The notes below the pieces were generated by a model. The model was not told where the DNA came from. It saw only the letters and a program-made list of their open reading frames with translations, and did no database searches. DNA of 64,000 bases from a virus, in the IMG/VR virus record IMGVR_UViG_3300045988_166195, positions 32,001 to 96,000 of that record; one strand, given 5' to 3'. The translations under genes and the position numbers were made by a program. Each line of letters starts with the position of its first letter. Within the stretch, counting starts at the first letter, position 1. Below, one piece after another: positions 35,536-54,154 of the stretch.

Positions 35536-35640
35536 TCTCTGCGCTTCTGTTTCTGATATGATTAGGTTGGTGAATCAACCAAATCGAAAAGATGCAAGAA
35601 AGACGTAAGAGACAGAAGAGAAAGGTGAAAGGTGGTGCAT

Positions 35641-38600
35641 ATGGCTTTCGGACGAAAGAAATCCGGTGGAGCAGCGCCTCGTGAACACGGTAGCCAAGCG
35701 TGGAACCAGTTGGGTAAGCAAGACGAGCTTGACTCGCTGGCCTATCAGGATGTGCACGGCGACCAGCAACTAGAACGTAGCGACATCGAGGCGAAGATCT
35801 CTCCGGTGTCGCGTGAGGTCGCATCGGCTGTTGCCGGTGTGCTTATCTTTATCCTCGTGTGGATGCTGTTCTCGTTCGGCACGATGGGTGTGGCCATGGG
35901 CCGTGACGCTCTGTGGCGTTCGTCTGTTCCGAGCTACGCGGTGCAGAACAAGGCTCTGACGAAGGAGCTGGGCAAGCCTGTGTGGAGCGAAGGGTGTTTC
36001 TCTCCAGCTCTCGAAACAGGTGAGATCGATACGTCCGATGAGACGTGCTATGAAGCTGCTGAGGATGTTCCTGAGCCACAGTGGCACGTGGATGCCGTTG
36101 CAGCAGAACAGGCTGAGCGCGATGTAGAACTAGCGGATCGCCCAAGCGGTGCGATGGGATGGATGCTGTCATTCGATTGGCTGAAGTTCATTGTGTCGTC
36201 GATCGCTGGTCTTGTCGTGTGGGGCTTGCTGCGTATGCGACTGATGCGCAACTTGAAGGCTCAGAACTTGATGCGGGATACGACCGACATCAACCAATAC
36301 AAAAACGACCAGCACGTGGCACTTCCTGAAGAAGTGCGTGAGCGTTTCGATGTGGTGCCTGACGTGGGCGCGCACACAGGTGTAAGTGCGACGACGCTCA
36401 TTTCCCACTCGATGGTCTCGAACAAGGGCATCAAGAAGGTGGCATTTGCGCAGCGAGCAACTGAGGACATTCTCGACGAGGATGGCGATGTGGCTCTGTT
36501 CGAGGGAGAAGCTCTCACGGACGATAACGGCGACGTTGTGACCAAGATGGTGCCGATGTTTGACGAAGAGTTTGGTACAGCTCTGTGGAACGCATCGGGG
36601 CTACCAGATAACAAGCAACTGCGTCGTCGTTTGGATCCTCGAAACGTGCCGTACAACCCAGGGAATGCCAACCGAGACAAGCTCAAGGGTTTCAACACCC
36701 TGGCTGATCTGGTGAACGGTGAGTGGGAACTTCCGATGTATGAGCCGCAGCGTCCTGCTGGCGTCTACTACGTGGATACGGCTCCTGCGAACACCATGAT
36801 CCTAGCTATGACTCGTGCTGGTAAGGGTCAGACGTACATTGAGCCGATGCTCGATATTTGGATGCGTCAGAAGCGCCCGGATAACATGGTGATCAACGAC
36901 CCCAAGGGCGAGCTCTTGGTGAAGAACTATGTTCGTGCCACCATGCGTGGTTTCCAGGTTGTGCAGTTCAACCTCATCAACGCCATGAAGACTGATATTT
37001 ACAACCCGCTTGGAATGGCTGCTGAGGCTGCACGCGAAGGTGATCAAACCAAGTGTGCTCTGTATGTCGAGAACATCGCAGATGTCTTCTTCCCTGTGGA
37101 TGGCGCGGAAGACCCTGTGTGGCCGAACGCTGCGAACAACGCGTTCAAGCGTGCGGCATACGGCCTCATCGATTACTACCTCGAAGAAGAACATCAGCTG
37201 CGTCAGTACGCGATGCGTCACGGTATGGATCAGAAGGTTCTGGAACAGAAACTCGATGCCATGTGGGGTAAGGTGACGCTCTACAACTGCTACCAGTTGT
37301 TCGTGCAGCTCACGAGTAAGAAGCGTAAGTCTCCGATGACTCAGGTGAACGAGCGCATTAAGAGTGGCTACTACGATCAGCAGTCGTCCGATCCTGATGA
37401 AGTCGACGCTCTGATCGAGCACGACAAGATGCAGGCTGAGCGTATTGAGTTCTTGTGGGAAGGTAAGCCGGAATCTGACTTGCTCACCTTGTTCTTCAAC
37501 GCCACTGAGGCGTTGCCTCAGTCGACGATGCGTACGTTGATCGCTAATGCGAACAACGCACTGCGTGCAATGGCTGGAGCTGAGAAGATGCTCGCATCTG
37601 TGTACGGTATTGCTATCACGGCAATGTCGTTCTTCACGGATCCGACGATCTCGACGTTGACCTCTGGTACTCCGTCACAGAACACGGATCTTGGCGGTCT
37701 GTCGTTCCCTCGTCGCTTCGGTGTGCGTTTCGCTCAGAACTTCACCAAGCGAGACGGTCTCATCGGTGCTCAGGCGAAGTGGGATGCGTTCGATGATCCC
37801 GAGTTGAAGCACAACCTGGGTAAGGATTTCGAGCACGAAGACACAGTGGTGCGAGAAGGATGGGCTCGTTATTACTTCGACGGTAAGTTCCCACATGACG
37901 TTGCCTACTTGCGACTGCGTTTGTTCAACCCCCAGACGGGTGTGTTGCTCAAAACGTTCTACTTCCAGTTCACGAAGGGTTACCAGCTCTCGTTGAATGG
38001 TCGTAAGTTCGTCAAGGATCCGATCACGGGTAACAAAATCATCCGTAATGGCGTTCTCGTGGAGATGGTGAAGGGTAAGAACGGGGTTCTTGTTTCTGGT
38101 CACCTGAGTTATCCGGCAACACGTCTGTTGGATAAGGCGGGGAGCCTCAAGACTGTACGAGAGGATGTCCCTGCGATTATCCTGTCGTCGGTTCGTTATT
38201 CGGAGCAGCCGAAGGCTGTGTTCCTGGTGACGCCACCTCACTTGATGAAGTACGCGAAGCTCGTACTGATTCTTGTGAAGCAGTTGGTGGATCTGAACTT
38301 CGATAAGTCGTACATGACGAAGGCGAACCAGAAGCCGCTCTACAAGACGCGCTTCATGCTCGACGAGCTCGGCAACTTGCAGTCCGAGGGTCACGGTATC
38401 TCGGGATTTGAGACCATGCTCTCCATTGGTCTGGGTCAGGAGCAGCAATTCACGCTGATTCTTCAGACGTTGCAGCAGGCTCGTGACGTTTACGGGGACA
38501 GCGTAGACAAGATCATTCAGGGAAACGTTGCCAATATCGTCTTCTTGAAGTCGACGGATGACACGATGATTGAGACGTTGGCCAAGATGTCCGGTACTCG

Positions 38601-39687
38601 CCACCGTGCGGTGCGAGACTCTAAGACGGTGACTCAGGATACTGAGCGTCTCATCGAAGGTCTGAACGTTGAGGGCAAAGTGTCGTACACGATCAGCGCG
38701 AAGGAAGAAAGTGTCATTGGGTACAACGATCTGGCATTCTTGCCGGAACGTAACTCGATCATCTTTTCGGCAGGCATCTCGCCTATCTGGAACCGCAATG
38801 CGGAGATTCTTCCTATGTCGTGGCGCTTGTTCAGCAACACGATCAAGCATCCGGGCCGCGAGTACTCACTTCAGACGATTCCGACTCTCTCGTCGGCGCT
38901 TGATTTCGATGTGCGTCTTAACCAGCCGAACTTCATGAAGATGCTGGATAAGCGCATCGAGCAAGCCGCGAATGCGGCTGAGGCGATGGAGTTGTACCAG
39001 GAGGCATACGATCTGGATGATTATGGCATCTCGATCCTGGATCCCGATGTGTACTCGGCTGAGGTCATGGATCTCATTGCCTCGATCGAGGAAGAGCGCA
39101 GGGGCCACGACATGGAGAACGAAGAGTACGACATGGACAGTGACGAGGCTCTACGTGCTCAGTTGGGATCTGGCTACGATATGTTCAACGAGGCTGACGA
39201 GATTAACGAAGATGTCCGCGAGGATCTTGCTGCTCGTCAGGAGATGTTGGCCGATCGAGCGAAGATGCGCTACGCGGAAGGTCAGATCAGCCGTGAGCAT
39301 CTGATGAGTGAGAGTGGACAGGTGTTGCACCATCTCGATGGTGACATCGTTGCTGCGTATCGTGAAGCGAAGCACGCAATGGTGGATGACGTTCGGTTCT
39401 TCCGAACAGACGAGAACGGTTCGCTGTGCTCGCTGGATGGAAAGGTCTACATCAGCCAGGGTGTGTCGAGCGATGAGCTGCGTACTCTCCAAACCGCATC
39501 GTCCGATGAGACGAGCGGTGTGTATGCGGATGATGAGTCGATCTCTGAGATCGCGGACCTGGGTTCGTGGCGAGTCCATGATGCGTTCTATAGGTTCTTG
39601 CACGGCCTGGAGTCGTGGGAGGATCTCGGCGGAGGCACTTTCGATCGCGCTATTGCACGAGTGTTCGAACGTCGAGAGAACGAGTGA
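35641..39687 (+). CDS. Type IV coupling protein (VirD4/TraG family) with a long C-terminal extension
   Basis: Two N-terminal TM helices (VAGVLIFILVWMLFSFGTMGV and FIVSSIAGLVVWGLLRM). TraG/VirD4 P-loop region MILAMTRAGKGQTYIEPMLDIWMRQKRPDNMVINDPKGEL (compare APTRSGKGVG...DPKGE). Walker B-like RFMLDELGNL. About 1350 aa. The C-terminal roughly 450 aa are acidic and not assignable. The start could be GTG 35632. Confidence 0.7.
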   Translation: MAFGRKKSGGAAPREHGSQAWNQLGKQDELDSLAYQDVHGDQQLERSDIEAKISPVSREVASAVAGVLIFILVWMLFSFGTMGVAMGRDALWRSSVPSYAVQNKALTKELGKPVWSEGCFSPALETGEIDTSDETCYEAAEDVPEPQWHVDAVAAEQAERDVELADRPSGAMGWMLSFDWLKFIVSSIAGLVVWGLLRMRLMRNLKAQNLMRDTTDINQYKNDQHVALPEEVRERFDVVPDVGAHTGVSATTLISHSMVSNKGIKKVAFAQRATEDILDEDGDVALFEGEALTDDNGDVVTKMVPMFDEEFGTALWNASGLPDNKQLRRRLDPRNVPYNPGNANRDKLKGFNTLADLVNGEWELPMYEPQRPAGVYYVDTAPANTMILAMTRAGKGQTYIEPMLDIWMRQKRPDNMVINDPKGELLVKNYVRATMRGFQVVQFNLINAMKTDIYNPLGMAAEAAREGDQTKCALYVENIADVFFPVDGAEDPVWPNAANNAFKRAAYGLIDYYLEEEHQLRQYAMRHGMDQKVLEQKLDAMWGKVTLYNCYQLFVQLTSKKRKSPMTQVNERIKSGYYDQQSSDPDEVDALIEHDKMQAERIEFLWEGKPESDLLTLFFNATEALPQSTMRTLIANANNALRAMAGAEKMLASVYGIAITAMSFFTDPTISTLTSGTPSQNTDLGGLSFPRRFGVRFAQNFTKRDGLIGAQAKWDAFDDPELKHNLGKDFEHEDTVVREGWARYYFDGKFPHDVAYLRLRLFNPQTGVLLKTFYFQFTKGYQLSLNGRKFVKDPITGNKIIRNGVLVEMVKGKNGVLVSGHLSYPATRLLDKAGSLKTVREDVPAIILSSVRYSEQPKAVFLVTPPHLMKYAKLVLILVKQLVDLNFDKSYMTKANQKPLYKTRFMLDELGNLQSEGHGISGFETMLSIGLGQEQQFTLILQTLQQARDVYGDSVDKIIQGNVANIVFLKSTDDTMIETLAKMSGTRHRAVRDSKTVTQDTERLIEGLNVEGKVSYTISAKEESVIGYNDLAFLPERNSIIFSAGISPIWNRNAEILPMSWRLFSNTIKHPGREYSLQTIPTLSSALDFDVRLNQPNFMKMLDKRIEQAANAAEAMELYQEAYDLDDYGISILDPDVYSAEVMDLIASIEEERRGHDMENEEYDMDSDEALRAQLGSGYDMFNEADEINEDVREDLAARQEMLADRAKMRYAEGQISREHLMSESGQVLHHLDGDIVAAYREAKHAMVDDVRFFRTDENGSLCSLDGKVYISQGVSSDELRTLQTASSDETSGVYADDESISEIADLGSWRVHDAFYRFLHGLESWEDLGGGTFDRAIARVFERRENE

Positions 39688-39758: not shown

Positions 39759-40400
39759 CTATTGCTGAAGCTTGATTCTCCCGGAGCAGTACGGGCAACC
39801 AGTCTTTTTGGTGGTGCGGCTATACGGTGTTGCCTTCCACGTATGAGAGGGGTTTATGGGGCACTGCCATAGCACGGACACGTCCGATCCTGGTTTAAGA
39901 GTGGTAGCGAGAGATTGATCGATGAGTTGTTCGGCCAAGTCTGGATGTGTAGTTGCCAAGTCGCTTTGACCAGAGACGGCACGGCGACCTGAGCATTGAG
40001 GGCAGCGCGTTCCTTGGCGTGCGACGTTGCTGAGCGGAGCAGTCCAGTGATCGTGCATAGGGTTACCGCACCAGAACTCAACTTTCTTGTTGGAAGAGCC
40101 GGTGAGCTTTGTTTGTAGGCTCGTATCGACCATGAGAGCAGCAGCTTCGGGATGAGTGGTGGCAACGTCGTTGACACCGGGGATCACAGTCTTGCCATTA
40201 CATACGCTGCATCCGGTGGGGTTTTTCGCGTTCGTACGGTTCATAGGGCTGGCCCACCACACGTGACGAGAGTCAACGGGGCAGCGCCATTGGACCTTCT
40301 TGTCTGAACCGCGAGCGATAGATCTTAGGGATTGGTCCACAAGCTGGTCAGCAAGGGCGGGGTTGAACTGCTCAAGGGTCTGAGATGGTTTTCTTGGCAT
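39759..40400 (-). CDS. Triple zinc-ribbon repeat protein (DUF4379-type probable zinc-ribbon domains)
   Basis: Three repeats of about 65 aa with the pattern LAxQLxDQSL...GSxxxVxWxCPxxxxHxWxAxPxxRT.....GCxxCxG.....GxNDxATTHP. 12 Cys/His ligand positions are conserved. GGAG-like Shine-Dalgarno (aggagaaccgccATG on the minus strand). Confidence 0.55.
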   Translation of the reverse strand: MPRKPSQTLEQFNPALADQLVDQSLRSIARGSDKKVQWRCPVDSRHVWWASPMNRTNAKNPTGCSVCNGKTVIPGVNDVATTHPEAAALMVDTSLQTKLTGSSNKKVEFWCGNPMHDHWTAPLSNVARQGTRCPQCSGRRAVSGQSDLATTHPDLAEQLIDQSLATTLKPGSDVSVLWQCPINPSHTWKATPYSRTTKKTGCPYCSGRIKLQQ

Positions 40401-40580
40401 GGCGGTTCTCCTGATTCTATTAGGGGTTGTTTGTATTATTCAGTGTATCATAAATAGTCGGTTATATGTATGCGGGTTCCCTTGTGTTTCCAGTCGAAAT
40501 GCGGGTTTTTGTCGGGTAGAATGGAGGGCGTAATACCCGATCGATCCAGTGGATCGAAACTCCAGGAAGGAGAATGCGTT

Positions 40581-43500
40581 ATGCAAACGCGCAATGCCGG
40601 ACTCCGGCGTTACATGTACGAGCATATGATCGCTCGCACAATCAATCGAACCTCGGAGATCACGAAGACTCCGATTCTTGTATCTCAGGGTCGACGCCTG
40701 AGGGATCTCATGGAAGAGCGTCTCAATGAACAGGGTCGTTCTTTCAACGATGGTGATCTACCTGTTACCGATGCGCTGGATGCTATCCAGAGCATCATGG
40801 AAGAGCATGTTCCCGGATACAAGCCTTTGTTCCAGCCTGCCGATACATCGAGTAAGGGCTACAAGGTTCTATATGAAGAGTTCAGGAACATGGTCGGTCT
40901 GAATGGCTCTGCTGGCGCGGCTGGTCCGCGTCTGCCGATTTCTCCGTATGATCCCCGGTGGGGGAGCCGTCGCACTGTGAAGCAGGCTGGGACCTCTATC
41001 CTGTACGTGCTCGATGGCGACATCGCCGCATACGCAGACGGTAAGCCAAGCAACATCGAGAAAGCGACGACCTCAGAACTTACTCTGTACCGCTTGACTG
41101 ATGAAGGGAAGGCCAAAGAGGCAGGCCGCGCTCTCAGCCTTGATGATGTCTCGGGTCTCACCGAGCTCATGGGTCGCATGTCGACGGCTGAGTACAACGA
41201 GGTTCGTCAGTGGGTGCTGGACGGTGCTCGCAACCCTGAAACGGGGCGCTACAACGCCCGTCAGTTCATGAGCACTGATGCATTGGCTCGTTCCCGAGCT
41301 GTGCTGGACATGCTCGCAGAAGAGGGCATTCCGTACACGATCGAGAAGGATCTTCGCCCTGGTCAGATCCGTGCGCGTTTGACGGGTACGAATATGACGG
41401 TGCGCCTGACTGACACCCGAGACAAAGAGCAGTGGGTGGGTCGTGTCTACGACAACGGTGCAACTCTGTACTTCTCCACGACGGCTCGTCGAGACAACAA
41501 GCAGGTGGCCTACACGCCAACTGTTGACGAGGTGTGCGACCTCGTGCGTGTTGCGCTGGGTCGACCAGTGGAGCGCAAGGATGGTAAGGGCCTCGTGGGC
41601 CGAGTGGGCGAGCGTCAGACCAGCAAGGGTAAGACGGTTCAAGAGTCGTATCTCTCCACTGGAACACTGACGAGTGCGTACAAGGACATGCCCGGTATGA
41701 ACGGTGAGCAGATCGTGATTCGTCGTCAGATGAAGGAGCGTTCTGCGTCTTCGCGGTTCTTTGCCGATACGCCCGAAGGTCGTGAACAGGCATCCGGTTT
41801 CATTACCGGTGCTGTGCACAGCGCTCGTCACAATGTGATTGAGCAGCTCGATGTCGATGGTCTGATCCAGCAGTTCCGCGATCACGAGGATGCTGCCCGT
41901 GAGGGTACGTACATCCCTATGCTGTCTGGTGATCCTGATCTTGCGGCGGTTGGCCGCGCGTACTGGGATGTGCTTCGTGGCGCTGAGACAACTCTGCTGA
42001 AGCCTGAGGCTACGCGAGCTGAGTACGCTGAGGCGACGGGTCTGCTTGACGACATGGATCAAGAGAGCGATCTGTCGGGCGTTCACGACATGCTGGCCGG
42101 TTCCGTGGCGTACACGGGTACCCCGGAAGAACGTGTTCGTGCGCATCTTCGGGATCTTCTCGATACCCAGATCGGTATCGATGAGCCTATCGACTCTGAT
42201 GACTTCGTGTTCGATCCAGTGCGCGTTGCTCGTTACATGACGAGTGAACACGGCCAGTGGCGTAACAACGATGATCTCGTGGCTGCTATGCGCAGCGTTG
42301 GTATGCCTCAGGAGAAGATCGTCGGGGAGTCGTTCTATTCCAACACGTTCCGCGATCGACTGATCACCTTCGATGAGTCCACGGCTTTGCCGATGGAGAC
42401 GGTCGAAGATGAGTTCACTCAGTCGATGCTTCAGGTTGTGTCTGACACGCTGGAGTCCTGCGCTGTGACGCCTGGTTCTATCCGCGTCGACGCCAACGGC
42501 GTTGTGGAGTGGACGGGCTCCATCATGCGCTCGCAGACAGGTAAGGAAGAGCCCGTGAGCGGTACGATCGGACAGATCTTTGCTCGCGGTGAGAACGGTG
42601 AGATCATCACACGGTTCAATTCCGGTAACGATCTGATGATCGTGCCTGGTTTTGACGCACGTGTGGTGGCACAGAAGCCTGGAGAGAACAAGTCCCTCGA
42701 AGAGCGCACCCGGCTGATCGGTTACGAGCAGCAGATGAGTGACGCGATTCGATACCGAGTTCAGGCTGATGTGCTCTCAGGTCGTTCTCGTGTGGGTGAA
42801 CCCGCCTCGTTGAACAGTGTGTACCGTCGTCTGTCGGATACGCGCCATCGCGCGGATCACTACGAGCGCGCTCTCGAAGAGGGTATGGATCGGAAGATCC
42901 TTGATGCCATTCTTGCTACCGAAGCGCGTCGTGTGCGTTACCCGAACGCTTTGCGTGATGGGTCGACGATCGACGCTGACTTCCGTGCATCTCGTGCTCG
43001 GGAACAGGGTATTGGTGGCGATCCGGCCAACGACACGACCATGGATCCGTGGGTGTTGACCGGCGGTCGCAACATGTCGTTGCTCAGCGAAGAAGCCGAT
43101 GGCTACTTCGATCCGATCATGACATCGGGCGGTGTGAACCAGGGCGTGACTCGTTATCTGGTGTCCGGTGCGCAGGTGAATCCTGATGGATCGATCGTAC
43201 GTTCTGATAAGAACGACCGTGCACCGCTGATGTTGACTGAGCAGGCTCAGCTCATGAGCTACGATCCGTTCGATCGTCAGCAGATGACGACTTCTAATCT
43301 CATGAACGCATCGTCTGTGACGAAGCCTGTGGGCACGGCGTTCATGACTGCTGGTGGTTGGACGATGGAGGACTCCATCGTTGTCTCGGCTGACTTTGCC
43401 AAGCAGTACCGCGTTCGCGGCACTGACGGTCAGATGCGCGATCTCATCGTTGGTGACAAGATCTCCGATATGCACGGCAACAAGGGTGTTATCTCGCTCA

Positions 43501-46031
43501 TTGTTGATCGCAATGCCGATCTGTCTCCTGATGAGATTGAAGAGTTGCATGGATCGACTGACATGATGACGCTTTTCCGGGAGAATCCGGGTTTGGATGT
43601 CGTCATGGCACCGTTCAGCGCTGTGTCTCGTTTCAACGGCGGCTCGGCACGTGAGGCGATGCGGCAAACGTCTGCGCTTCATCTGCCAAACGGCACAACC
43701 GTTGAGGCAGGTATTGGTCAGGTGTCGTTTATCGGCACGCATATGACCGTGGATGCGAAGACGGCTGCATACGATGAAGCTGCGATCCGAGCTGGACAAG
43801 GTCGTAAGGCGTCGTCTCAGCTTGCATGGGCCTTGCAGTCCCAGGGCTGCGATAAGGTGTTGGGGCAGATGTATGGTGGCAACCTGCAAGCTCTTGCGCA
43901 GCTGCGTGAAATGGCTCTGGTGTGCGGTTTGGACATCGAGCCTGATGGCACCTTGCGCGATGGTCATGATGATCTTGCTGTTGGTGGGCAGCGCCGTCTC
44001 ATCGAGATGGGCGATGTGCCGCTGACTGAACGTGGATCGTTCGACGTGCGTCGCGTTCGTAACGATTTCGCGTCGCTGATTGGTGACGCTGGTGGTGACA
44101 TGGAGATTCCGTTCCCGCTGACGATGCCAACGGGCGCTCGTACGCCTCATGCAACAGACACCACCTGGCGTGTGCCGGTGCTGAGTTCGCATCTGCGATC
44201 GGGCCAGGATCTGGATGACGGTACGTCGACGGTCCATGATTACACGTATCGTTACCTTGCGATCCGTGAATGGTCGCTGCGCTACAAGCATGCGGCTGAT
44301 CGCGCTGCGTCTGGTGAGCTGACGGGTAAGGAGCTTTCCGATGCTCGTCGAACGATGGCTGAGGCTATGCACCGTGCGCAGACGGCTTACGATGGCATTG
44401 CGCAAGACATCATGCGTCGCCGGTTTACCGGCAAGCGCAATGTCTTCAAGGAAGGTCTCATGGCTTCGCGTCTGCCGCACTCGGCTACCGCTGTGTGGAC
44501 GGGTGATCCTCGCTTGGACATCGACCAGGTTGGTGTTGGCCCGGAGCTGGCGAAGAAACTACACTTGCGCGATGGTGACTACGCGCTTGTGTGGCGTGAT
44601 CCTGTTCTGCGTGATGCGGGTGTCCGTTACATGCGTGTTGCGATCGATGACCGTCTCACGGGTGTGAGTGTGAATCCAAACATGGTCAAGTGCTTCGACG
44701 GCGACTTCGACGGTGACTCTGTGGCTGTTGTGAAGCTGGGTGATGGTCCGGCACATGAGCAAGCGCTGGAGCGTCTGACTGTCGAGGCTAACCTCATCGA
44801 TCTCGGTCAGAGCATGGACGACGAGGGTCGTTACCCTCTTGCGATGCACAACGCGCTCGATGTGAAGGTGTCGCAGCACTACGACTCTCGTCATGCGGAT
44901 GCGATGGATGAGGTTCATCAGCGCGCCAACGATGCGTACTACGATCTGACTGAAGGGGATGCTACTCGTGAGCAGTTCCTGGAGGCGGGTCGTGATGTCG
45001 TTGATGCAGCGTCGTATATGTACCGTGATGCGCTTCAGCATCAGTACGGTGAGGCTGTGTTGTCGTTTGGTTCCGTTCAGGAGCACATGAAGTCTGTGGC
45101 GGCTGCGTGTATTGAGACGGGAGCTAAAGGCTCGCCTAAGAAGATGCTGGATTACGCTCGGTACATCGGCTATGACCCTGAGAACCAGGTGGATCTGGTG
45201 ACCACGTGTGTGACTCGTGGGGAACAGCAGGGCACCATGTTTGCGACGGCTGTGAAGTCGTTTGGTACCGGTGTTGCCGGTACGTTCTCGCAGCGTGGTG
45301 TGCGAGCTCTTCGTAACGATGAGCTCAAGGCTGTGTTGGAGCTGACCTACCCGGTGACGCAGAGTATTTTGCAGGCTAAGCACGACCCTGTGGATGCTCG
45401 TCATCGCTATGAGTTGCTGATGGGTCCGGCGCGAAGCTTGTGGCGTGGTCAGATGATTGCACAGGATGCCAACGGTGTGTGGAACACTGTGACGGATGAC
45501 GATCATAAGCCGGTTCAGGCTACCAAGGATCAGTGGGTCGCTGTGTTCTCGCAGTTCTATGGCGATGATGGTCTGGGTGTGGCTGTGAACAGTGACAACA
45601 TCACGAAGGTTGCAAATGCGCTCAGCGATAGCAACGGGGTGATGGTGAATCTGGAGGACGAGAAGGTCATTGAACAGCTCGCTTCTCCGATGGATCGTCT
45701 GGCTTACGGCGGTGACTTCACCACGATGCAAGCTCTGGCTGAGACTCGGGCAAACTTGTTCGAGGGTCGGTGGAACGTTACGTTTGCACCAGCTCGTGTG
45801 CGTGAGGTGCTGGAGGCTGATGTGGAGACGCAAGCTGAGGCACCGGTGATCGCCATGGAAGACACTGTGGCTCGCGTGGACCGTGATGAGAAGATCGGTC
45901 GACGTAAGTCGACATCGTGGGCTGTCCCAGTTCGCTCGAACACGGGTGCCAGCGCAGCTGAGCGTTACGGTTTGACGACACAAGACAACAGTGAGACAGA
46001 CAAGTCTGTCGATGATGGTTTCGAGCTGTAA
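40581..46031 (+). CDS. Giant single-chain RNA polymerase-like protein: RpoB-like module followed by RpoC-like module (YonO-like mobile-element RNAP family), ending in ...KSVDDGFEL
   Basis: AGGAAGGAGAA Shine-Dalgarno then ATG 40581 (MQTRNAG). Beta-like module: AFMTAGGWTMEDSIVVS (compare RpoB AFMPWNGYNFEDSILVS), GDKISDMHGNKGVISLIV (RpoB GDKMAGRHGNKGVISKI), DVVMAPFSAVSRFNGGSAREAM (RpoB [20 protein letters not shown]), SSQLAWALQSQG (RpoB GEMEVWALEAYG). Beta-prime-like module: LVWRDPVLRDAGVRYMRV (RpoC LLNRAPTLHRLGIQAF), VKCFDGDFDGDSVAVV (RpoC NADFDGDQMAVH, the Mg-binding aspartates), TGAKGSPKKMLDYARYIGY (RpoC SGARGS...RGLM). The E. coli sequences are from memory. The antisense ORFs inside it are shadows. 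Confidence 0.75.
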   Translation: MQTRNAGLRRYMYEHMIARTINRTSEITKTPILVSQGRRLRDLMEERLNEQGRSFNDGDLPVTDALDAIQSIMEEHVPGYKPLFQPADTSSKGYKVLYEEFRNMVGLNGSAGAAGPRLPISPYDPRWGSRRTVKQAGTSILYVLDGDIAAYADGKPSNIEKATTSELTLYRLTDEGKAKEAGRALSLDDVSGLTELMGRMSTAEYNEVRQWVLDGARNPETGRYNARQFMSTDALARSRAVLDMLAEEGIPYTIEKDLRPGQIRARLTGTNMTVRLTDTRDKEQWVGRVYDNGATLYFSTTARRDNKQVAYTPTVDEVCDLVRVALGRPVERKDGKGLVGRVGERQTSKGKTVQESYLSTGTLTSAYKDMPGMNGEQIVIRRQMKERSASSRFFADTPEGREQASGFITGAVHSARHNVIEQLDVDGLIQQFRDHEDAAREGTYIPMLSGDPDLAAVGRAYWDVLRGAETTLLKPEATRAEYAEATGLLDDMDQESDLSGVHDMLAGSVAYTGTPEERVRAHLRDLLDTQIGIDEPIDSDDFVFDPVRVARYMTSEHGQWRNNDDLVAAMRSVGMPQEKIVGESFYSNTFRDRLITFDESTALPMETVEDEFTQSMLQVVSDTLESCAVTPGSIRVDANGVVEWTGSIMRSQTGKEEPVSGTIGQIFARGENGEIITRFNSGNDLMIVPGFDARVVAQKPGENKSLEERTRLIGYEQQMSDAIRYRVQADVLSGRSRVGEPASLNSVYRRLSDTRHRADHYERALEEGMDRKILDAILATEARRVRYPNALRDGSTIDADFRASRAREQGIGGDPANDTTMDPWVLTGGRNMSLLSEEADGYFDPIMTSGGVNQGVTRYLVSGAQVNPDGSIVRSDKNDRAPLMLTEQAQLMSYDPFDRQQMTTSNLMNASSVTKPVGTAFMTAGGWTMEDSIVVSADFAKQYRVRGTDGQMRDLIVGDKISDMHGNKGVISLIVDRNADLSPDEIEELHGSTDMMTLFRENPGLDVVMAPFSAVSRFNGGSAREAMRQTSALHLPNGTTVEAGIGQVSFIGTHMTVDAKTAAYDEAAIRAGQGRKASSQLAWALQSQGCDKVLGQMYGGNLQALAQLREMALVCGLDIEPDGTLRDGHDDLAVGGQRRLIEMGDVPLTERGSFDVRRVRNDFASLIGDAGGDMEIPFPLTMPTGARTPHATDTTWRVPVLSSHLRSGQDLDDGTSTVHDYTYRYLAIREWSLRYKHAADRAASGELTGKELSDARRTMAEAMHRAQTAYDGIAQDIMRRRFTGKRNVFKEGLMASRLPHSATAVWTGDPRLDIDQVGVGPELAKKLHLRDGDYALVWRDPVLRDAGVRYMRVAIDDRLTGVSVNPNMVKCFDGDFDGDSVAVVKLGDGPAHEQALERLTVEANLIDLGQSMDDEGRYPLAMHNALDVKVSQHYDSRHADAMDEVHQRANDAYYDLTEGDATREQFLEAGRDVVDAASYMYRDALQHQYGEAVLSFGSVQEHMKSVAAACIETGAKGSPKKMLDYARYIGYDPENQVDLVTTCVTRGEQQGTMFATAVKSFGTGVAGTFSQRGVRALRNDELKAVLELTYPVTQSILQAKHDPVDARHRYELLMGPARSLWRGQMIAQDANGVWNTVTDDDHKPVQATKDQWVAVFSQFYGDDGLGVAVNSDNITKVANALSDSNGVMVNLEDEKVIEQLASPMDRLAYGGDFTTMQALAETRANLFEGRWNVTFAPARVREVLEADVETQAEAPVIAMEDTVARVDRDEKIGRRKSTSWAVPVRSNTGASAAERYGLTTQDNSETDKSVDDGFEL

Positions 46032-46113: not shown

Positions 46114-46145
46114 GCGATAGTACAATATACTGATATATGAGTCGA
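46114..46145 (+). promoter_or_regulatory. Variant copy of the recurrent motif (GCGATAGTACAATATACTGATATATGAGTCG) upstream of DDGFEL-tail paralog A
   Basis: Two mismatches to ATATACTGGTATACGAGTCG at 48431. About 30 nt upstream of ATG 46176. Confidence 0.3.
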
Positions 46146-46175
46146 AAACCCGTTCCAAGAAAGGAAATATTTATC

Positions 46176-47387
46176 ATGTCTGTGTCAGCTATGTCAGAGT
46201 GGATGGCGAAGTTCCCCCAGGATTGGGTCGAGATTCGTTATGGTCTTGAGGCTCATGAGTGGGCTGGTTCGCTTTCTGATCGAGTGATGGCGATTATCAA
46301 TAAGAATGACCCCGCACGAGAAGATCGGGTTAATGCATTGCTGCGTGACAATGCTGTGCTTCTTGAAAGAAGGTTTCAGGGTCACAGGCGTCCAGGACCT
46401 GACGAGGACTTTATTGATTATGCCGAGTTCCGTGATGCCATTTCTCATGTTGTAGAAAATGGTATTTCTATTAACGATGAAACCTATTCGCAAATCCATT
46501 ATGTGGATAGTACATGTGTGCGTTCTCCGACAAAGGCGCTGCTGCGTCCGCATCATGAGGTATATCCCAATGCCAACGTACAGGCTTTTTATCGTCGGTC
46601 TTTGCGCGAGGGGAAGCCTTCAAAACCTTCGGATGGATATATCAAAAATGTGTATGGTCTGAGAGGCGATGAATGGACGGGCACATCAGTCGATGTGGGG
46701 GCGATCATCAATGATCGCTCATCGAGGATAGCATCGATAAGGGATCAGCGTGTCAATGATTTCTTGCGTGATCAGGTGGCTGTTTTCGAGATGGGCATGG
46801 AGAAGCTTGAGGCCAAGAACGCAACATATAACGATATGGGAGTAGGTGCTCGTGCTTATGGTTATGATCTGCGTGATGCGATTGAGGAAGCCGTAGAGAA
46901 TGGTATTTTGATTAATGCTGAAACGATGAACGCTATCAAGAGGGTAGAGCATGATTACGTGACTCCATATGTCGGGGAATCGTTGGCGAACCAATATGAC
47001 AAGTTGTATGAGCTTAATGAAGCACGGAAACATCATCATGAGATTGCGCCATCGTTTGCATCATCACATGAAAAGAAGTCTGAGCCAGCGATTCATTCGG
47101 TCATTACCGGTGGAAGTGGTCATGGTAAAGAACAGGTTCAGCTTGCTAACGTTTTGAGCGGACGGATGCCCTCGATGGGTCGCGATACAGACGGCCAGTC
47201 TTTGGCACCGTCTACCCCGTCTCAGGGTTCTCGTCAGGGGTCTATTGGGGCAGCGCTTCCCGGTAGTTCCATTACTGTTGGTCGTCGGACGCCTCGTGTG
47301 TCGCCCACTGCTGGTACGGCTCGTCGTATGGGTATTTCTGAGTCTCAGGTACAGACCCCAAGCGTCGATGACGGTTTCGAGCTGTGA
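46176..47387 (+). CDS. DDGFEL-tail repeat protein, paralog A (404 aa)
   Basis: Shine-Dalgarno GAAAGGAAAT. Contains RYGLEAHEWAGSLSDRVMAIINKNDPAREDRVNALLRDNA and a second copy NVYGLRGDEWTGTSVDVGAIINDRSSRIASIRDQRVNDFLRDQV. Then ILINAETMNAIKRVEHDYV, a Ser/Pro/Gly-rich disordered tail, and ...GSIGAALPGSSITVGRRTPRVSPTAGTARRMGISESQVQTPSVDDGFEL. Slightly lower GC than the neighbours. Confidence 0.55.
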   Translation: MSVSAMSEWMAKFPQDWVEIRYGLEAHEWAGSLSDRVMAIINKNDPAREDRVNALLRDNAVLLERRFQGHRRPGPDEDFIDYAEFRDAISHVVENGISINDETYSQIHYVDSTCVRSPTKALLRPHHEVYPNANVQAFYRRSLREGKPSKPSDGYIKNVYGLRGDEWTGTSVDVGAIINDRSSRIASIRDQRVNDFLRDQVAVFEMGMEKLEAKNATYNDMGVGARAYGYDLRDAIEEAVENGILINAETMNAIKRVEHDYVTPYVGESLANQYDKLYELNEARKHHHEIAPSFASSHEKKSEPAIHSVITGGSGHGKEQVQLANVLSGRMPSMGRDTDGQSLAPSTPSQGSRQGSIGAALPGSSITVGRRTPRVSPTAGTARRMGISESQVQTPSVDDGFEL

Positions 47388-47477
47388 TCGCCATGTGATC
47401 ATGGGTTGACACCATGAAGAAGCAGGTCTCGCCTTCGGGTGGGGCCTGCTTCTTTGTCTGTATACGTTGCAATGGTG

Positions 47478-47499
47478 CGATATACTGGTATACGAGCCA
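47478..47499 (+). promoter_or_regulatory. Recurrent motif GCGATATACTGGTATACGAGCC upstream of paralog B
   Basis: Part of a roughly 40-nt block (TACGTTGCAATGGTGCGATATACTGGTATACGAG) nearly identical to the one at 48415-48450. Confidence 0.4.
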
Positions 47500-47531
47500 A
47501 ACACGTGGCGATGATGGAAAGGAAGGGTGTT

Positions 47532-48344
47532 ATGACGCTTTATTACGATCAGGAAATCAAGGAGTATACCGATGCCGGGATCAGGCGATACAAAGGTCTT
47601 GATCCACATGAAGAGCTGGATGCACCAACCGAGCGGTATGGTCTTGATCCACATGAGTGGACAGGAACATTGGCCGATAAGGTGACAGCGATTATCGGTA
47701 AAAATACGCCCGAGAAGGAAACGCATGTGAATGCGTTGTTGCGCGATGCGGCAAAATCATTTATGAAGAATGCCAAATATGCGGAAATGAATGCCCATAA
47801 TGATGAAACTACCTTTAAGAAGGTAATGTCTGTCAACGGTGATGATTTGCGTGCTGCTATGTCCGAAGCGTCCTTGGGCGGCATTCTTATTAACGATGAA
47901 GCGATGGATGCTATCAAACGTGTGGAAAAGCGTTATCTTTCATATTGGAGTTTTGATTTCGGTTTTGATTCTCTGACGCATGCATACGATGAGCTGTATA
48001 AACTTAATGATGCGCGAGCTCATTTCCGTGAGAGTGCGCAAGTGATGCGAGGTGCTGCGAATACCCCAGCGATTTCAAATCCAGAGTTTGATCGTTTCGC
48101 CCCGCCTCAGGGTTCACGTGTGACGACGGTTCCGCCGCCTGTGCGGTCTGCGCCCTCTATCCCGTCTGCTCTTTCTATGTCCGCTGTGTCCACTCAGCGA
48201 ACTGGTTCTATCCAGGCTGTGCTTCCAGGCAGTGGTATCAAGGTGAGTCGAGCGGCACCTCATGTTCCGCAGACTGCCCGTCGTATGGGTGTTGTTGAGT
48301 CACAGGTGCAGACTCCGAATGTTGATGACGGGTTCGAGTTGTGA
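47532..48344 (+). CDS. DDGFEL-tail repeat protein, paralog B (270 aa)
   Basis: Shine-Dalgarno AAAGGAAGGG then ATG (MTLYYDQEIKEY). RYGLDPHEWTGTLADKVTAIIGKNTPEKETHVNALLRDAA. ILINDEAMDAIKRVEKRYL. Tail ...GSIQAVLPGSGIKVSRAAPHVPQTARRMGVVESQVQTPNVDDGFEL. Confidence 0.55.
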   Translation: MTLYYDQEIKEYTDAGIRRYKGLDPHEELDAPTERYGLDPHEWTGTLADKVTAIIGKNTPEKETHVNALLRDAAKSFMKNAKYAEMNAHNDETTFKKVMSVNGDDLRAAMSEASLGGILINDEAMDAIKRVEKRYLSYWSFDFGFDSLTHAYDELYKLNDARAHFRESAQVMRGAANTPAISNPEFDRFAPPQGSRVTTVPPPVRSAPSIPSALSMSAVSTQRTGSIQAVLPGSGIKVSRAAPHVPQTARRMGVVESQVQTPNVDDGFEL

Positions 48345-48428
48345 CGCTGACGTGATTATGTGATGGGGTAGGTCTTGCTTGAAAGCGGGGCCTACTTCAT
48401 CGTTTTGCCATGTTATCGTTGCAATAGT

Positions 48429-48450
48429 GCGATATACTGGTATACGAGTC
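48429..48450 (+). promoter_or_regulatory. Recurrent motif GCGATATACTGGTATACGAGTC upstream of paralog C
   Basis: Identical core to 47478. About 30 nt upstream of ATG 48480. Confidence 0.4.
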
Positions 48451-48479
48451 GAATGCAACTAAATGAAAGGAAGATGGTC

Positions 48480-52022: not shown

Positions 52023-52373
52023 ATGGCGCTCAAGAAGGACGTACAGAAGAATGTGAGGGTGGATGATGACACCCGTATGACGAAGACGAAGTTGATACAG
52101 GCCGTATCGAAGCGTACGGGTATCGATAGCGCTACAGTGCGAGCTGTGTATGCAGCTATCGTCGATGAAATCATCACGACGACCCGTTCTGGCCGATCAG
52201 TTATGCTGACGGGATTCGGTCGTTTCTACCGGCTACATAAGGCCGGTCACACCGTGCAGTTCACCAAGTCGGGTACAGGCGCGGTTCCTGGTTACGACGT
52301 GCTGAAGTTTTCGGCCTCGTCGACGCTGAATCGATCATTGACAAGCGAGTCGAACGAGTCAGATGATCATTGA
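52023..52373 (+). CDS. HU/IHF-family histone-like DNA-binding protein
   Basis: MALKKDVQKN...TKTKLIQAVSKRTGIDSATVRAVYAAIVDEIITTTRSGRSVMLTGFGRFYRLHKAGHTVQFTKSGTGAVPGYDVLKFSASSTLNRSL. This is the classic HU layout (K..LI..V.......V......GF.F.....R.GRNP.TG). Shine-Dalgarno GGAAAGGATGAGAGG. Confidence 0.7.
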   Translation: MALKKDVQKNVRVDDDTRMTKTKLIQAVSKRTGIDSATVRAVYAAIVDEIITTTRSGRSVMLTGFGRFYRLHKAGHTVQFTKSGTGAVPGYDVLKFSASSTLNRSLTSESNESDDH

Positions 52374-54131: not shown

Positions 54132-54154
54132 CAGGAGGACGGCATAAGGGCTTG

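What the first reader, a model, noticed from the sequence alone, without database searches (positions are those of the whole stretch)
40581..46031. An RNA polymerase of about 1816 aa in one chain (beta then beta-prime) carried on a conjugative T4SS element
One polypeptide contains both double-psi beta-barrel signatures of the multisubunit RNAP catalytic core, in beta then beta-prime order. The beta-like signatures are AFMTAGGWTMEDSIVVS and GDKISDMHGNKGVIS. The beta-prime-like signatures are LVWRDPVLRDAGVRYM, the Mg-binding FDGDFDGDSVAVV, and an F-region-like TGAKGS. Single-chain two-barrel RNAPs are known from prophages and killer plasmids (B. subtilis SPbeta YonO, crAss-like phage RNAPs). I do not know of one placed in a relaxase/T4CP/T4SS gene neighbourhood and given a C-terminal tail shared with co-encoded small proteins. 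Functional options include promoter-specific transcription of element genes, primer synthesis on transferred ssDNA in the recipient (the role Sog/TraC primases play), or transfer of the enzyme itself. The 900 aa preceding the beta-like module are unassigned.
Basis: partly seen in the sequence, partly recalled or inferred. Interest (0 to 1): 0.9.

Follow-up and report, generated by a model that had tools for sequence, protein, structure and literature searches.

The report
Single-chain RNA polymerase in conjugation module
A mobile DNA element of an Actinomyces-like bacterium encodes its own 1816-residue RNA polymerase, with both catalytic halves of the cellular enzyme fused in one chain, always placed next to the motor protein that exports DNA during bacterial mating and carrying a short conserved C-terminal tag shared with its neighbours, which suggests (unproven) that the enzyme is handed over together with the DNA.

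Summary

The protein is not a new kind. It is a full-length homologue (39% identity, 97% coverage) of C. glutamicum NCgl1702. [quoted passage not shown]

Two findings appear in none of the literature I could search:
- The gene is a core member of a five-gene module, ClpB-like AAA+ / TM protein / giant VirD4-type coupling protein / RNAP / 'd4'. The module is conserved in about 77-80 of 83 loci across Actinomycetota, and a similar linkage occurs on Staphylococcus plasmids.
- A disordered C-terminal tail ends in the tip D-x-G-[FY]-[EQG]-[LM]. The tip is conserved from Actinomyces to Staphylococcus and is shared with neighbouring proteins.

My best reading is a transfer-coupled RNAP docked to the coupling protein and possibly exported. 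This is inferred, not shown. No VirB4 was recognised.

The parts
40581..46031 (+). Gene for the 1816-aa single-chain beta::beta' two-barrel RNA polymerase (NCgl1702 family)
40581..42428 (+). N-terminal region, aa 1-616: family-specific, confidently folded, no known-fold match
42429..45878 (+). RNAP core module, about aa 617-1766
43338..43496 (+). Beta-type DPBB signatures: AFMTAGGWTMEDSIVVS (aa 920-936) and GDKISDMHGNKGVIS (aa 958-972), only 21 aa apart, so there is no flap/SBHM insert
   Evidence: Positions. D343 K344 and G350 N351 K352 G353 (A1 numbering) are invariant in 60 homologues. Pfam Rpb2_6 covers aa 950-977.
44445..44732 (+). Beta-prime-type elements: FKEGLMASRLPHSATAVW (aa 1289-1306), LVWRDPVLRDAGVRYM (1336-1351), and the Mg-binding DFDGD (D1375/D1377/D1379)
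   Evidence: Positions. D759-F-D-G-D763 (A1 numbering) is invariant. The profile aligns to Rpb1/RPC1/NRPE1/beta' across both segments. Pfam Rpb1_2 covers aa 1328-1383.
45117..45386 (+). TGAKGS (aa 1513-1518), the long helix ATAVKSFGTGVAGTFSQRGVRALRN (1555-1579) and the invariant P-V-T-Q-x-x-L-Q-x-K-H-D (to aa 1602): candidate bridge helix and trigger-loop region
   Evidence: K900 G901, L981, K984 and H985 are invariant. The model has a 53-residue helix at this position. TGAKGS aligns to Rpb1 GSKGS in a weak third stretch that is not significant on its own (1.5 bits). A search with this segment alone found no RNAP, so the assignment is inferred.
45879..46028 (+). Disordered C-terminal tail (last 50 aa): basic patch RRKSTSWAVPVRS (aa 1774-1786; nt 45900-45938) and acidic/aromatic tip VDDGFEL (aa 1810-1816; nt 46008-46028)
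   Evidence: pLDDT 28-39. The basic patch plus tip pattern is seen across most of the 120 homologues. The tip also occurs in NCgl1702 (DGGFEL) and in Staphylococcus SAP020A_023 (DKGFELEM).
35632..39687 (+). Expanded VirD4-type coupling protein (T4CP), 1351 aa, directly upstream of the RNAP in 80 of 83 loci
   Evidence: Pfam T4SS-DNA_transf, TraG-D_C and TrwB_AAD_bind. Walker A MTRAGKGQ, Walker B RFMLDE, TM segments and an acidic C-terminal extension. Synteny.
29260..33033 (+). ClpB/Hsp100-like double AAA+ ATPase with an intein-like LAGLIDADG insertion; a conserved module member
   Evidence: Pfam AAA, AAA_2, ClpB_D2-small, LAGLIDADG_3 and Hom_end. Present in 77 of 83 loci.
33184..35466 (+). 760-aa protein with a C-terminal TM segment; a conserved module member between the AAA+ ATPase and the T4CP
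   Evidence: No Pfam hit. TM segment at about aa 703. Present in 75 of 83 loci.
46137..49808 (+). Three paralogous genes, d1 (46137/46176-47387), d2 (47439/47511-48344) and d3 (48375/48453-49808). Each ends with the same ~45-aa tail and VDDGFEL. They are specific to this lineage.
   Evidence: Tails. 37-41% pairwise identity with a repeated ~130-aa domain. Found only in L005 and L010. No Pfam or NCBIfam hit. Gene starts from public calls.
49851..51512 (+). 'd4', 553 aa, function unknown. It is the gene that follows the RNAP in 80 of 83 loci and ends in the related tip ...NDGFEPSL.
   Evidence: Synteny. Tips. No Pfam or PDB sequence match.
26075..28414 (+). MobL-family relaxase, ending ...MDSMELG
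   Evidence: Pfam MobL, E 1e-62. Tail. MobL lies upstream of the module on three actinobacterial plasmids.
24797..25945 (+). 382-aa protein ending ...DLDDPEF (acidic/aromatic tip)
   Evidence: A weak homologue exists on the Streptomyces plasmid.
28542..29114 (+). 190-aa protein after the relaxase, ending ...EIDEPEF (acidic/aromatic tip)
   Evidence: Homologues follow MobL in Gordonia and Streptomyces.
39759..40400 (-). DUF4379 treble-clef zinc-finger gene inserted between the T4CP and the RNAP, in this lineage and a few others
   Evidence: Pfam DUF4379, E 2e-30. Present in 6 of 83 loci. Also found near NCgl1702.

Best explanation
The ORF encodes a catalytically competent single-chain two-barrel RNA polymerase of the NCgl1702 family. 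Its layout is an N-terminal family-specific region (aa 1-616), a beta-like module with a compact DPBB that lacks the flap insert, a beta-prime-like module with the DFDGD Mg site, and a 50-residue disordered tail.

It is a core component of a conserved conjugation module: ClpB-like AAA+ / TM protein / expanded VirD4-type coupling protein / RNAP / d4. The module lies downstream of a MobL relaxase and of membrane-channel and cell-wall-hydrolase genes.

The most likely mechanism is that the tail acts as a short linear docking signal read by a module component, most plausibly the coupling protein. The tail has a basic patch and the tip D-x-G-[FY]-[EQG]-[LM]. Docking would couple the polymerase, and the other tip-bearing proteins, to the DNA-transfer machine, and they would probably be exported with the single strand. 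The enzyme would then begin RNA synthesis on the incoming DNA in the recipient, either transcribing early element genes or priming the complementary strand, independently of the host RNAP. This would be the conjugative counterpart of the virion RNAPs injected by phages P23-45 and crAss-like phi14:2, and of the Sog/TraC primases.

Shown here: the enzyme's identity and intact active site, its membership of the module, the conservation of the tail and tip, and the sharing of the tip with neighbours.

Inferred: which component reads the tail, whether the enzyme is exported, and what template it acts on.
For: Identity:
- Pfam beta and beta-prime models pass their cutoffs.
- A family profile hits Rpb1/beta' at E about 1e-9 to 1e-10.
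- GDK, HGNKG and DFDGD are invariant in 60 homologues.

Family: 39% identity over 97% of its length to the cluster that holds C. glutamicum BAB99168.1/NCgl1702.

Module:
- The T4CP is directly upstream in 80 of 83 loci and d4 directly downstream in 80. The AAA+ ATPase is present in 77 and the TM protein in 75.
- The order MobL ... AAA - X - T4CP - RNAP holds on the Gordonia, Streptomyces and Rhodococcus plasmids.
- A Staphylococcus MOBP plasmid carries an 1807-aa beta::beta' homologue two genes downstream of a T4CP homologue.

Tail:
- The last 50 aa are disordered.
- The basic patch plus acidic/aromatic tip is family-wide.
- The tip DxGFEL is shared by Actinomyces, C. glutamicum and Staphylococcus proteins.
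- The same tip, or a related one, is on d1-d3, d4, the relaxase and two small proteins in the window, and on d4 and other cluster proteins in other elements.
- The tip regex occurs in 43 of 84 RNAP tails and 44 of 545 other co-directional ORFs. It occurs in 0 of 432 opposite-strand ORFs and 10 of 6040 internal 9-mers.

Precedent:
- The best PDB sequence hit is the injected, tape-measure-fused RNAP gp96 of phage P23-45.
- From general knowledge, large primases (Sog, TraC) are exported by conjugative T4SS, and the Dot/Icm coupling complex reads acidic C-terminal signals.

Not a phage gene: there is no homologue in 50,697 phage genomes.
Against: - There is no direct evidence of export or of tail-T4CP binding. 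The regex for the tip was defined after seeing the data.
- The tip resembles other acidic/aromatic C-terminal peptides, such as SSB tails and the F TraD tail, which serve protein-protein docking without export.
- A folded 200-kDa enzyme would need unfolding to pass a T4SS. The adjacent ClpB-like ATPase could do this, but that is speculation.
- NCgl1702 keeps the tip although its locus has no T4CP within 10 kb.
- Relaxase tails in other elements do not show the tip clearly.
- No VirB4 is recognisable, so the nature of the channel is uncertain.
- The characterised single-chain relative YonO works inside the producing cell as a late-gene transcriptase (PMC5467207).
- No candidate element-specific promoter motif conserved across related elements was found.
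Confidence: 0.45

Rival explanations
1. Donor-side dedicated transcriptase. The RNAP stays in the donor and transcribes the element's own transfer or maintenance genes from element-specific promoters, as YonO does for SPbeta late genes. This would make expression independent of host RNAP and its regulators. The C-terminal tip would recruit a specificity or accessory factor such as d4, or tether the enzyme near the transfer apparatus, without export.
For: - YonO, the only characterised bacterial single-chain relative, acts this way (PMC5467207).
- The long co-directional gene array (about 5.5-51.5 kb on the + strand) would suit a processive dedicated polymerase.
- d4 is a constant, uncharacterised downstream partner.
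- NCgl1702 retains the tip without an adjacent T4CP.
- A recurring intergenic motif lies upstream of five + strand genes.
Against: - The recurring motif overlaps an ordinary sigma-70-type promoter and is absent from the 87%-identical sister element.
- A purely transcriptional role does not explain why unrelated neighbours (d1-d3, d4, two small proteins, and the relaxase in the window) carry the same or similar tip.
- It also does not explain the near-obligate adjacency to the coupling protein rather than to regulatory genes.
Confidence: 0.3
2. Relaxosome or replacement-strand helper in the donor. The enzyme makes RNA at or near oriT. This would either open the origin by R-loop formation or prime replacement-strand synthesis on the retained strand. 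It would be recruited to the relaxase/T4CP complex by its tail.
For: - It is close to the MobL relaxase and the T4CP.
- The relaxase in the window carries a related tip.
- No primase domain was found among the window's genes.
- From general knowledge, two-barrel relatives such as QDE-1 act on single-stranded DNA.
Against: - oriT has not been located.
- The window covers only 64 kb of a contig of at least 121 kb, so a primase may lie elsewhere.
- Rolling-circle replacement synthesis normally extends the nicked 3' end and needs no primer.
Confidence: 0.12
3. Phage-derived passenger gene. The RNAP is a prophage or phage-satellite gene, as the location of NCgl1702 in the C. glutamicum 'CGP3 prophage' would suggest. 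It would be unrelated to conjugation and only coincidentally near transfer genes here.
For: - NCgl1702 lies in a region annotated as prophage (general knowledge), with a restriction-modification cassette next to it.
- PGAP annotates a 'phage tail tip lysozyme' in the cluster.
- The top viral structural hit is a siphovirus 'minor tail protein'.
Against: - No homologue exists in 50,697 phage genomes.
- T4CP-RNAP adjacency holds in 80 of 83 loci across many genera, on plasmids and chromosomes.
- MobL relaxases are in the same clusters.
- The NCgl1702 locus keeps the d4-like gene, the UvrD gene and a DUF4379 gene, as expected for a decayed element of the same type.
Confidence: 0.03
4. Catalytically dead scaffold. 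The protein has kept the fold but works only as a structural or DNA-binding component of the transfer apparatus.
Against: Every residue class needed for catalysis is invariant across 60 homologues down to about 30% identity: the two Lys of GDK...HGNKG, the ED pair, the Asp triad, and the R-x-P-x-L-R motif. The same Pfam signatures are even stronger in the Staphylococcus homologue.
Confidence: 0.03

Closest known systems
[quoted passage not shown]
   Same: Full-length homologue, 39% identity over 97% of the query. It has the same beta-then-beta-prime order, the same compact beta DPBB without the flap/SBHM insert, the same long family-specific N-terminal region, and the same C-terminal tip (DGGFEL against DDGFEL).
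   Different: NCgl1702 sits in a decayed locus with a restriction-modification cassette upstream and no coupling protein within 10 kb. The window protein is in an apparently complete relaxase/T4CP module and is followed by three extra tail-sharing paralogues. None of the papers I could read describes the T4CP linkage or the tail. The 2003 and 2012 Aravind-group papers were not available.
YonO of Bacillus subtilis prophage SPbeta (PMC5467207)
   Same: A single-chain two-barrel DNA-dependent RNAP encoded by a mobile element. It lacks most accessory domains of cellular RNAP. According to PMC7824862, both belong to the set that lacks the SBHM insert.
Injected virion two-barrel RNAPs: Thermus phage P23-45 gp96 (tape-measure fusion; PDB 8H2M/8H2N; PMC10770324) and crAss-like phi14:2 gp66 (PDB 6VR4)
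   Different: Those enzymes are phage virion proteins whose delivery into the target cell and early-gene transcription have been shown experimentally. Here the delivery machine would be a conjugative coupling protein and channel, and delivery is only inferred.
Kluyveromyces lactis killer-plasmid pGKL2 Orf6 (Rpb2::Rpb1 fusion; PMC2919709)
   Same: A plasmid-encoded fusion of the second-largest and largest subunit homologues in the same order.
   Different: It is eukaryotic, on a cytoplasmic linear plasmid, and 982 aa long. It retains the SBHM insert according to PMC7824862 and has no conjugation context.
Conjugatively exported primases (Sog of ColIb-P9, TraC of RP4) - general knowledge
   Same: Large nucleic-acid polymerases encoded in transfer regions, which would act on the incoming single strand in the recipient.
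   Different: These are DnaG/TOPRIM-type primases, unrelated in fold. Their export has been shown experimentally. No primase domain is present here.

Membership tests
Two-barrel (double-psi beta-barrel) RNA polymerase superfamily | Beta-type DPBB supplying two basic residues (GDK...HGNKG) plus the ED pair | tested here: met
   The motifs lie at aa 920-936 and 958-972 and are invariant in 60 homologues. Pfam Rpb2_6 scores above its cutoff.
Two-barrel (double-psi beta-barrel) RNA polymerase superfamily | Beta-prime-type DPBB with the DxDxD Mg-binding triad | tested here: met
   DFDGD lies at aa 1375-1379 and is invariant. Pfam Rpb1_2 scores above its cutoff. The profile aligns to DFDGD of Rpb1, RPC1, NRPE1 and beta'.
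Two-barrel (double-psi beta-barrel) RNA polymerase superfamily | Overall fold superposes on RNAP catalytic subunits | tested here: met
   [not shown]
Two-barrel (double-psi beta-barrel) RNA polymerase superfamily | Bridge helix and trigger loop | tested here: inconclusive
   A 53-residue helix follows TGAKGS, and the motif PVTQxxLQxKHD is invariant. 509 residues align with RPA1. However, searches with this segment alone, as a single sequence and as a profile, found no RNAP.
[quoted passage not shown] | Full-length homology to C. glutamicum NCgl1702 | tested here: met
   P0111 has 39% identity over 97% of the query. Its cluster contains BAB99168.1 of C. glutamicum ATCC 13032, 2169 aa.
[quoted passage not shown] | Beta DPBB without the SBHM/flap insert (PMC7824862) | tested here: met
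   Only 21 residues separate EDSIVVS (ending at aa 936) from GDK (aa 958). From general knowledge, the corresponding motifs in bacterial beta are about 250 residues apart.
[quoted passage not shown] | Carried on a mobile or selfish element | tested here: met
   Relaxase and T4CP lie in the same cluster. Homologues are on plasmids and in chromosomal islands.
Cellular RpoB/RpoC (multisubunit RNAP subunits) | Scores above the NCBIfam equivalog cutoffs for rpoB or rpoC/rpoA1 | tested here: not met
   28 bits against a cutoff of 819, and 18.5 against 896.
YonO-like prophage RNAPs | Size of about 100 kDa, prophage context and late-gene transcription | tested here: not met
   The protein is 1816 aa. 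There is no homologue in 50,697 phage genomes, and the context is a conjugation module. Direct sequence comparison with YonO was not possible with these tools.
Conjugative T4SS element (Gram-positive type) | Relaxase | tested here: met
   Pfam MobL, E 1e-62, at 26075-28414.
Conjugative T4SS element (Gram-positive type) | VirD4-type coupling protein | tested here: met
   Pfam T4SS-DNA_transf, TraG-D_C and TrwB_AAD_bind. Walker A MTRAGKGQ and Walker B RFMLDE.
Conjugative T4SS element (Gram-positive type) | VirB4-type ATPase | tested here: inconclusive
   No Pfam or NCBIfam hit and no Walker A in any + strand ORF of the window. A conserved 708-aa ORF (51% identical to its Gordonia counterpart) sits where VirB4 is expected but has no recognisable ATPase motif. 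The window covers only part of the element.
Conjugative T4SS element (Gram-positive type) | Cell-wall hydrolase and polytopic membrane channel proteins | tested here: met
   Phage_lysozyme2 domain protein with 2 TM segments at 20703-22640. An 1102-aa protein with 7 predicted TM segments at 15204-18512, and several small TM proteins.
T4SS-exported proteins (Sog/TraC primases, relaxases, effectors) | C-terminal translocation signal recognised by the coupling protein | tested here: inconclusive
   A disordered tail with a conserved tip, shared with neighbours, is present. Nothing here shows what reads it.
T4SS-exported proteins (Sog/TraC primases, relaxases, effectors) | Demonstrated transfer into recipient cells | not testable with these tools
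   This needs Cre-fusion or immunodetection assays in matings.

The most novel reading that the evidence does not exclude
Conjugative elements of Gram-positive bacteria (Actinomycetota and some Bacillota) ship their own two-barrel RNA polymerase into the recipient together with the transferred strand. An expanded VirD4-type coupling protein, possibly helped by the adjacent ClpB-like unfoldase, would read a conserved C-terminal tip, D-x-G-[FY]-[EQG]-[LM]. That tip also marks a set of co-exported proteins (d4; d1-d3 here). The polymerase would then start RNA synthesis on incoming single-stranded DNA, for early transcription or priming, without the host RNAP. This would be a conjugation equivalent of phage virion RNAPs, and it would define a new secretion signal for Gram-positive T4SS.
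Probability: 0.35. Interest if true: 0.9.

Novelty: new member of a known kind. Interest (0 to 1): 0.68.

Why it matters
The enzyme class (NCgl1702-like beta::beta' fusions) has been known from sequence analysis for two decades, but it has no experimental characterisation and no assigned biological role. This analysis gives it a concrete, testable context. It is a near-obligate neighbour of the conjugative coupling protein in a five-gene module found in hundreds of actinobacterial plasmids and integrated elements, with counterparts on staphylococcal and lactococcal plasmids. It also carries a cross-phylum conserved C-terminal peptide shared with other module proteins.

If the polymerase is exported or acts on the transferred strand, this would explain how such elements establish themselves in new hosts without relying on host promoter recognition. 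It would also provide the first defined translocation signal for a Gram-positive conjugation system, and it would extend the 'bring your own RNA polymerase' strategy from phages to plasmids.

Even if the enzyme works only in the donor, it is a compact enzyme closer to multisubunit RNAPs than YonO or QDE-1 are. That makes it of interest for RNAP evolution and as an orthogonal transcription tool. The family includes elements common in human-associated Actinomyces, Cutibacterium and Staphylococcus.

Tried and rejected
1. 'YonO' in papers on clostridial conjugation loci (pCS1-1, pCP13): the matches were to the author name Yonogi, not to an RNAP.

2. Element-specific promoter. The motif GATATACTSGTATACGAG occurs 5 times, always on the + strand and in intergenic DNA. 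However, it overlaps a good sigma-70-type promoter at d1 and is absent from the 87%-identical sister element and all other loci. I treat it as a local host-type promoter or operator, not as evidence for RNAP specificity.

4. Bridge helix and trigger loop by sequence. phmmer and a 16-sequence profile of aa 1500-1660 found no RNAP.

5. d4 function. There are no Pfam or PDB sequence hits with a 12-member profile. d1-d3 have no Pfam or NCBIfam hits.

6. VirB4. It was not found in the window or in the syntenic Gordonia region. The Gordonia 'AAA family ATPase' upstream is a UvrD/SF1-like helicase.

7. Phage origin. tblastn against 50,697 phage genomes found nothing.

8. The founding papers (Iyer et al. 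2003; Iyer & Aravind 2012) could not be retrieved. Whether they already noted the T4CP linkage is therefore unknown.

9. Literature searches combining plasmid-encoded or two-barrel RNAP with conjugation, recipient or coupling protein returned nothing relevant.


Full report
1. OBSERVATION

The window has one uninterrupted ORF from 40470 to 46031 on the + strand. The ATG at 40581 gives MQTRNAGLRRYMYEH. That matches the consensus N-terminus (M.....G.RRYLYEY) of 60 homologues and the length of the database cluster (1816 aa).

The ORF is not a one-off assembly product. The identical protein is encoded on five independent metagenomic contigs, one of them 120,982 bp long. Its 90%-identity cluster has 614 members of 1813-1817 aa.

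2. IDENTITY OF THE PROTEIN

Sequence evidence:
- Pfam RNA_pol_Rpb2_6 (aa 950-977; E 5e-7; 29.6 bits against a gathering score of 23.4) and RNA_pol_Rpb1_2 (aa 1328-1383; E 1e-6; 29.4 against 25.3) both pass their curated cutoffs, in beta then beta-prime order.
- NCBIfam rpoB and rpoA1 equivalogs are touched only weakly, far below their cutoffs. The protein is therefore not a cellular subunit.
- A profile built from 60 family members hits Rpb1, RPC1, NRPE1 and bacterial beta-prime chains at E about 1e-9 to 1e-10. The alignments cover both the segment before the barrel (FKEGLMASRLPHSATAVW) and the DFDGD barrel.
- In the family alignment, the catalytic residues are invariant: D-K of GDK, G-N-K-G of HGNKG, D-F-D-G-D, and K-G of TGAKGS.

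Structural evidence:
- An AlphaFold2 model of aa 617-1816 is confident (pLDDT 88.8, pTM 0.84).
- Single-chain two-barrel enzymes score lower: QDE-1 11.6, P23-45 gp96 10.9, RDR2 10.6, and crAss-like gp66 8.0.
- The two beta-barrel signatures are only 21 residues apart, so the flap/SBHM insert of cellular beta is absent.

A long helix follows TGAKGS, and the motif P-V-T-Q-x-x-L-Q-x-K-H-D is invariant. These look like a bridge helix and a trigger loop. Sequence searches with that segment alone found no RNAP, so this point stays inferred.

3. THE N-TERMINAL REGION

Bacillota homologues align from about aa 600-700 onward, and the confident core model starts at aa 617. The truly unassigned part is therefore about 616 residues.

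4. THE FAMILY IS ALREADY KNOWN

Among 120 full-length homologues, P0111 is 39% identical over 97% of the query. It represents the cluster that contains C. glutamicum ATCC 13032 BAB99168.1, a 2169-aa protein.

This is NCgl1702. Ruprich-Robert and Thuriaux (2010, PMC2919709) cite it, after Iyer et al. [quoted passage not shown] Iyer et al. [quoted passage not shown]

The enzyme class is therefore not new. I found no experimental work on it.

An exhaustive search finds 380 clusters at 50% identity with E ≤ 1e-30. Nearly all are 1800-2500 aa, with the polymerase module starting 600-900 residues in.

5. HOST AND DISTRIBUTION

The closest genomic loci (97% and 87% identity) are on two contigs of one human-metagenome MAG labelled 'uncultured Actinomyces sp.'. 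Other members occur in Streptomyces, Arthrobacter/Pseudarthrobacter, Microbacterium, Kribbella, Nocardiopsis, Promicromonospora, Brevibacterium, Cutibacterium, Gordonia, Rhodococcus and others. They lie both on plasmids and inside complete chromosomes.

More distant homologues (23-28% identity) are on Staphylococcus and Lactococcus plasmids. The Staphylococcus SAP020A protein is 1807 aa and passes both Pfam models (E 2e-16 and 1.6e-10). No homologue was found in 50,697 phage genomes.

6. CONTEXT

The window holds these genes on the + strand:
- a topoisomerase
- a 7-TM 1102-aa protein and several small TM proteins
- a tail-lysozyme-type hydrolase
- a MobL relaxase (E 1e-62)
- a ClpB-like double AAA+ ATPase with an intein-like LAGLIDADG insertion
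- a 760-aa TM-anchored protein
- a 1351-aa coupling protein
- the RNAP

The coupling protein has a VirD4-type Walker A (MTRAGKGQ), a Walker B (RFMLDE) about 500 residues later, and a 250-residue acidic C-terminal extension.

I used the window proteins as tblastn queries against 83 loci. The coupling protein lies directly upstream of the RNAP in 80 loci. The homologue of the 49851-51512 gene ('d4') lies directly downstream in 80. The AAA+ ATPase is present in 77 and the TM protein in 75.

Annotated plasmids of Gordonia, Streptomyces and Rhodococcus show the same order, from the lysozyme through MobL to the RNAP.

No VirB4-type ATPase could be recognised. A conserved 708-aa ORF (51% identical between Actinomyces and Gordonia) occupies the expected position but lacks a Walker A and any family match. 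The 'T4SS' label is therefore only partly verified.

7. THE TAIL

The last 50 residues are predicted disordered. Across most of the family, the C-terminus consists of three parts:
- a basic stretch (R-x-x-R-S ... A-V-x-V-R)
- a linker of 15-25 residues
- an acidic/aromatic tip, for example DDGFEL, DDYQL, DSFQL, DDYGMGY, DGFEYGL and DDQEMEL

The same D-x-G-F-E-L tip occurs in the window protein (VDDGFEL), in NCgl1702 (DGGFEL) and in the Staphylococcus homologue (DKGFELEM). It is therefore an old, selected short linear motif.

In the window, the three genes after the RNAP (d1-d3) end in the identical VDDGFEL, preceded by about 40 alignable residues. They are paralogues of each other (37-41% identity), of unknown function, and occur only in this lineage. 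Four other proteins end in related tips: d4 in NDGFEPSL, the relaxase in MDSMELG, and two small proteins flanking the relaxase in DLDDPEF and EIDEPEF.

In other elements, d4 and further cluster proteins carry tips resembling that of their own RNAP:
- Streptomyces: DDDYGMGY and SEDYQPA
- Microbacteriaceae: DGFQP or DDYQL, and DVDFELG
- Gordonia: EGLGA and GPELGA, GPQLG, GPSL

I defined a simple regex for the tip after seeing the data. It matches the last nine residues of 43 of 84 non-redundant RNAP tails and 44 of 545 other co-directional ORFs. It matches 0 of 432 opposite-strand ORFs and 10 of 6040 internal 9-mers.

8. MECHANISM

Shown:
- The enzyme has an intact active site.
- It is a fixed member of a coupling-protein-centred module.
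- It carries a conserved terminal peptide on a flexible tether.
- The same peptide is on neighbouring proteins.

Inferred: a module component reads the peptide, most plausibly the expanded coupling protein. This couples the polymerase and its co-tagged neighbours to DNA transfer, possibly exporting them so that RNA synthesis starts on the incoming strand.

Supporting analogies:
- Phage P23-45 gp96 is an injected, tape-measure-fused two-barrel RNAP and is the best PDB sequence hit.
- From general knowledge, the primases Sog and TraC are exported, and the Dot/Icm coupling complex reads acidic C-terminal signals.

The main rival is a donor-side transcriptase of the YonO type. It explains the polymerase, but it does not readily explain the shared tips or the tight T4CP adjacency.

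I give 0.45 to the transfer-coupled model as a whole. Within it, identity as an active RNAP of this family is about 0.97, and core membership of the conjugation module is about 0.9. I give 0.30 to the donor transcriptase model, 0.12 to a relaxosome or replacement-strand role, and a few percent each to a phage passenger gene or a dead scaffold.

9. NOVELTY AND SCORE

For the enzyme, the result is a new member of a known kind. The system-level findings are not in any paper I could search. These are the obligate T4CP-RNAP-d4 module across Actinomycetota with Bacillota counterparts, and the cross-phylum C-terminal tip shared with neighbours.

The finding turns a long-standing orphan enzyme family into a directly testable hypothesis about conjugation. 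Interest is 0.68.

Noticed in passing
window 29260-33033 (+): The ClpB/Hsp100-like double AAA+ ATPase of the module carries a LAGLIDADG/Hom_end homing-endonuclease (intein-like) insertion at aa ~835-920. The Gordonia and Rhodococcus orthologues are only 588-590 aa, and the Streptomyces one is 1431 aa.
   Followed up: partly
window 9691-9708, 33079-33096, 46124-46141, 47479-47496, 48431-48448 (+): An 18-nt motif, GATATACTSGTATACGAG, occurs five times (0.04 expected by chance). All copies are on the + strand and in intergenic DNA upstream of genes: topoisomerase, the TM protein, and d1, d2, d3. It overlaps a sigma-70-like promoter at d1 and is absent from the 87%-identical sister element.
   Followed up: partly
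window 13081-15207 (+): A 708-aa ORF is 51% identical to an 835-aa ORF of Gordonia pGKT2, which makes it as conserved as the coupling protein. It sits where a VirB4 ATPase would be expected, but it has no Walker A and no Pfam, NCBIfam or PDB sequence match.
   Followed up: partly
window 1521-2315 (-), 2330-3121 (-), 6632-7624 (-); 3912-4607 (-): Three paralogous DNA/RNA non-specific endonuclease-like genes lie at one end of the window, with matching DNA repeats. A YAcAr/SLOG-domain gene is also there.
   Followed up: no
[not shown]
   Followed up: partly
L005 and L010 (same MAG, CALIZH01): One metagenome bin carries two related copies of the whole module, at 97% and 87% RNAP identity. They differ in their sets of the tail-sharing d1-d3 paralogues.
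   Followed up: no
L001 34337-34651 (-) and 31239-31754 (-): On Gordonia pGKT2, a 104-aa protein ends in EEPPF, copying the C-terminal tip of the plasmid's SSB (DEPPF). This is another case of a shared terminal peptide on the same elements.
   Followed up: no
[not shown]
   Followed up: partly
window 35632-39687 (+): The coupling protein is about twice the usual size. It has roughly 500 residues inserted between Walker A and Walker B and a 250-residue, strongly acidic C-terminal extension.
   Followed up: partly
L071, L065, L057: Homologues lie on contigs binned as Muribaculaceae (Bacteroidota), Clostridia and Parvibacter. This is either cross-phylum spread or mis-binning of plasmid contigs.
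   Followed up: no
window 52023-52373 (+), 53681-54145 (-), 54155-57295 (-), 58411-60285 (-): Downstream of the module are an HU-family protein, a PemK/MazF toxin, a 1046-aa UvrD-like helicase and a second ClpB-like ATPase. The helicase and second ATPase recur in several related loci.
   Followed up: no
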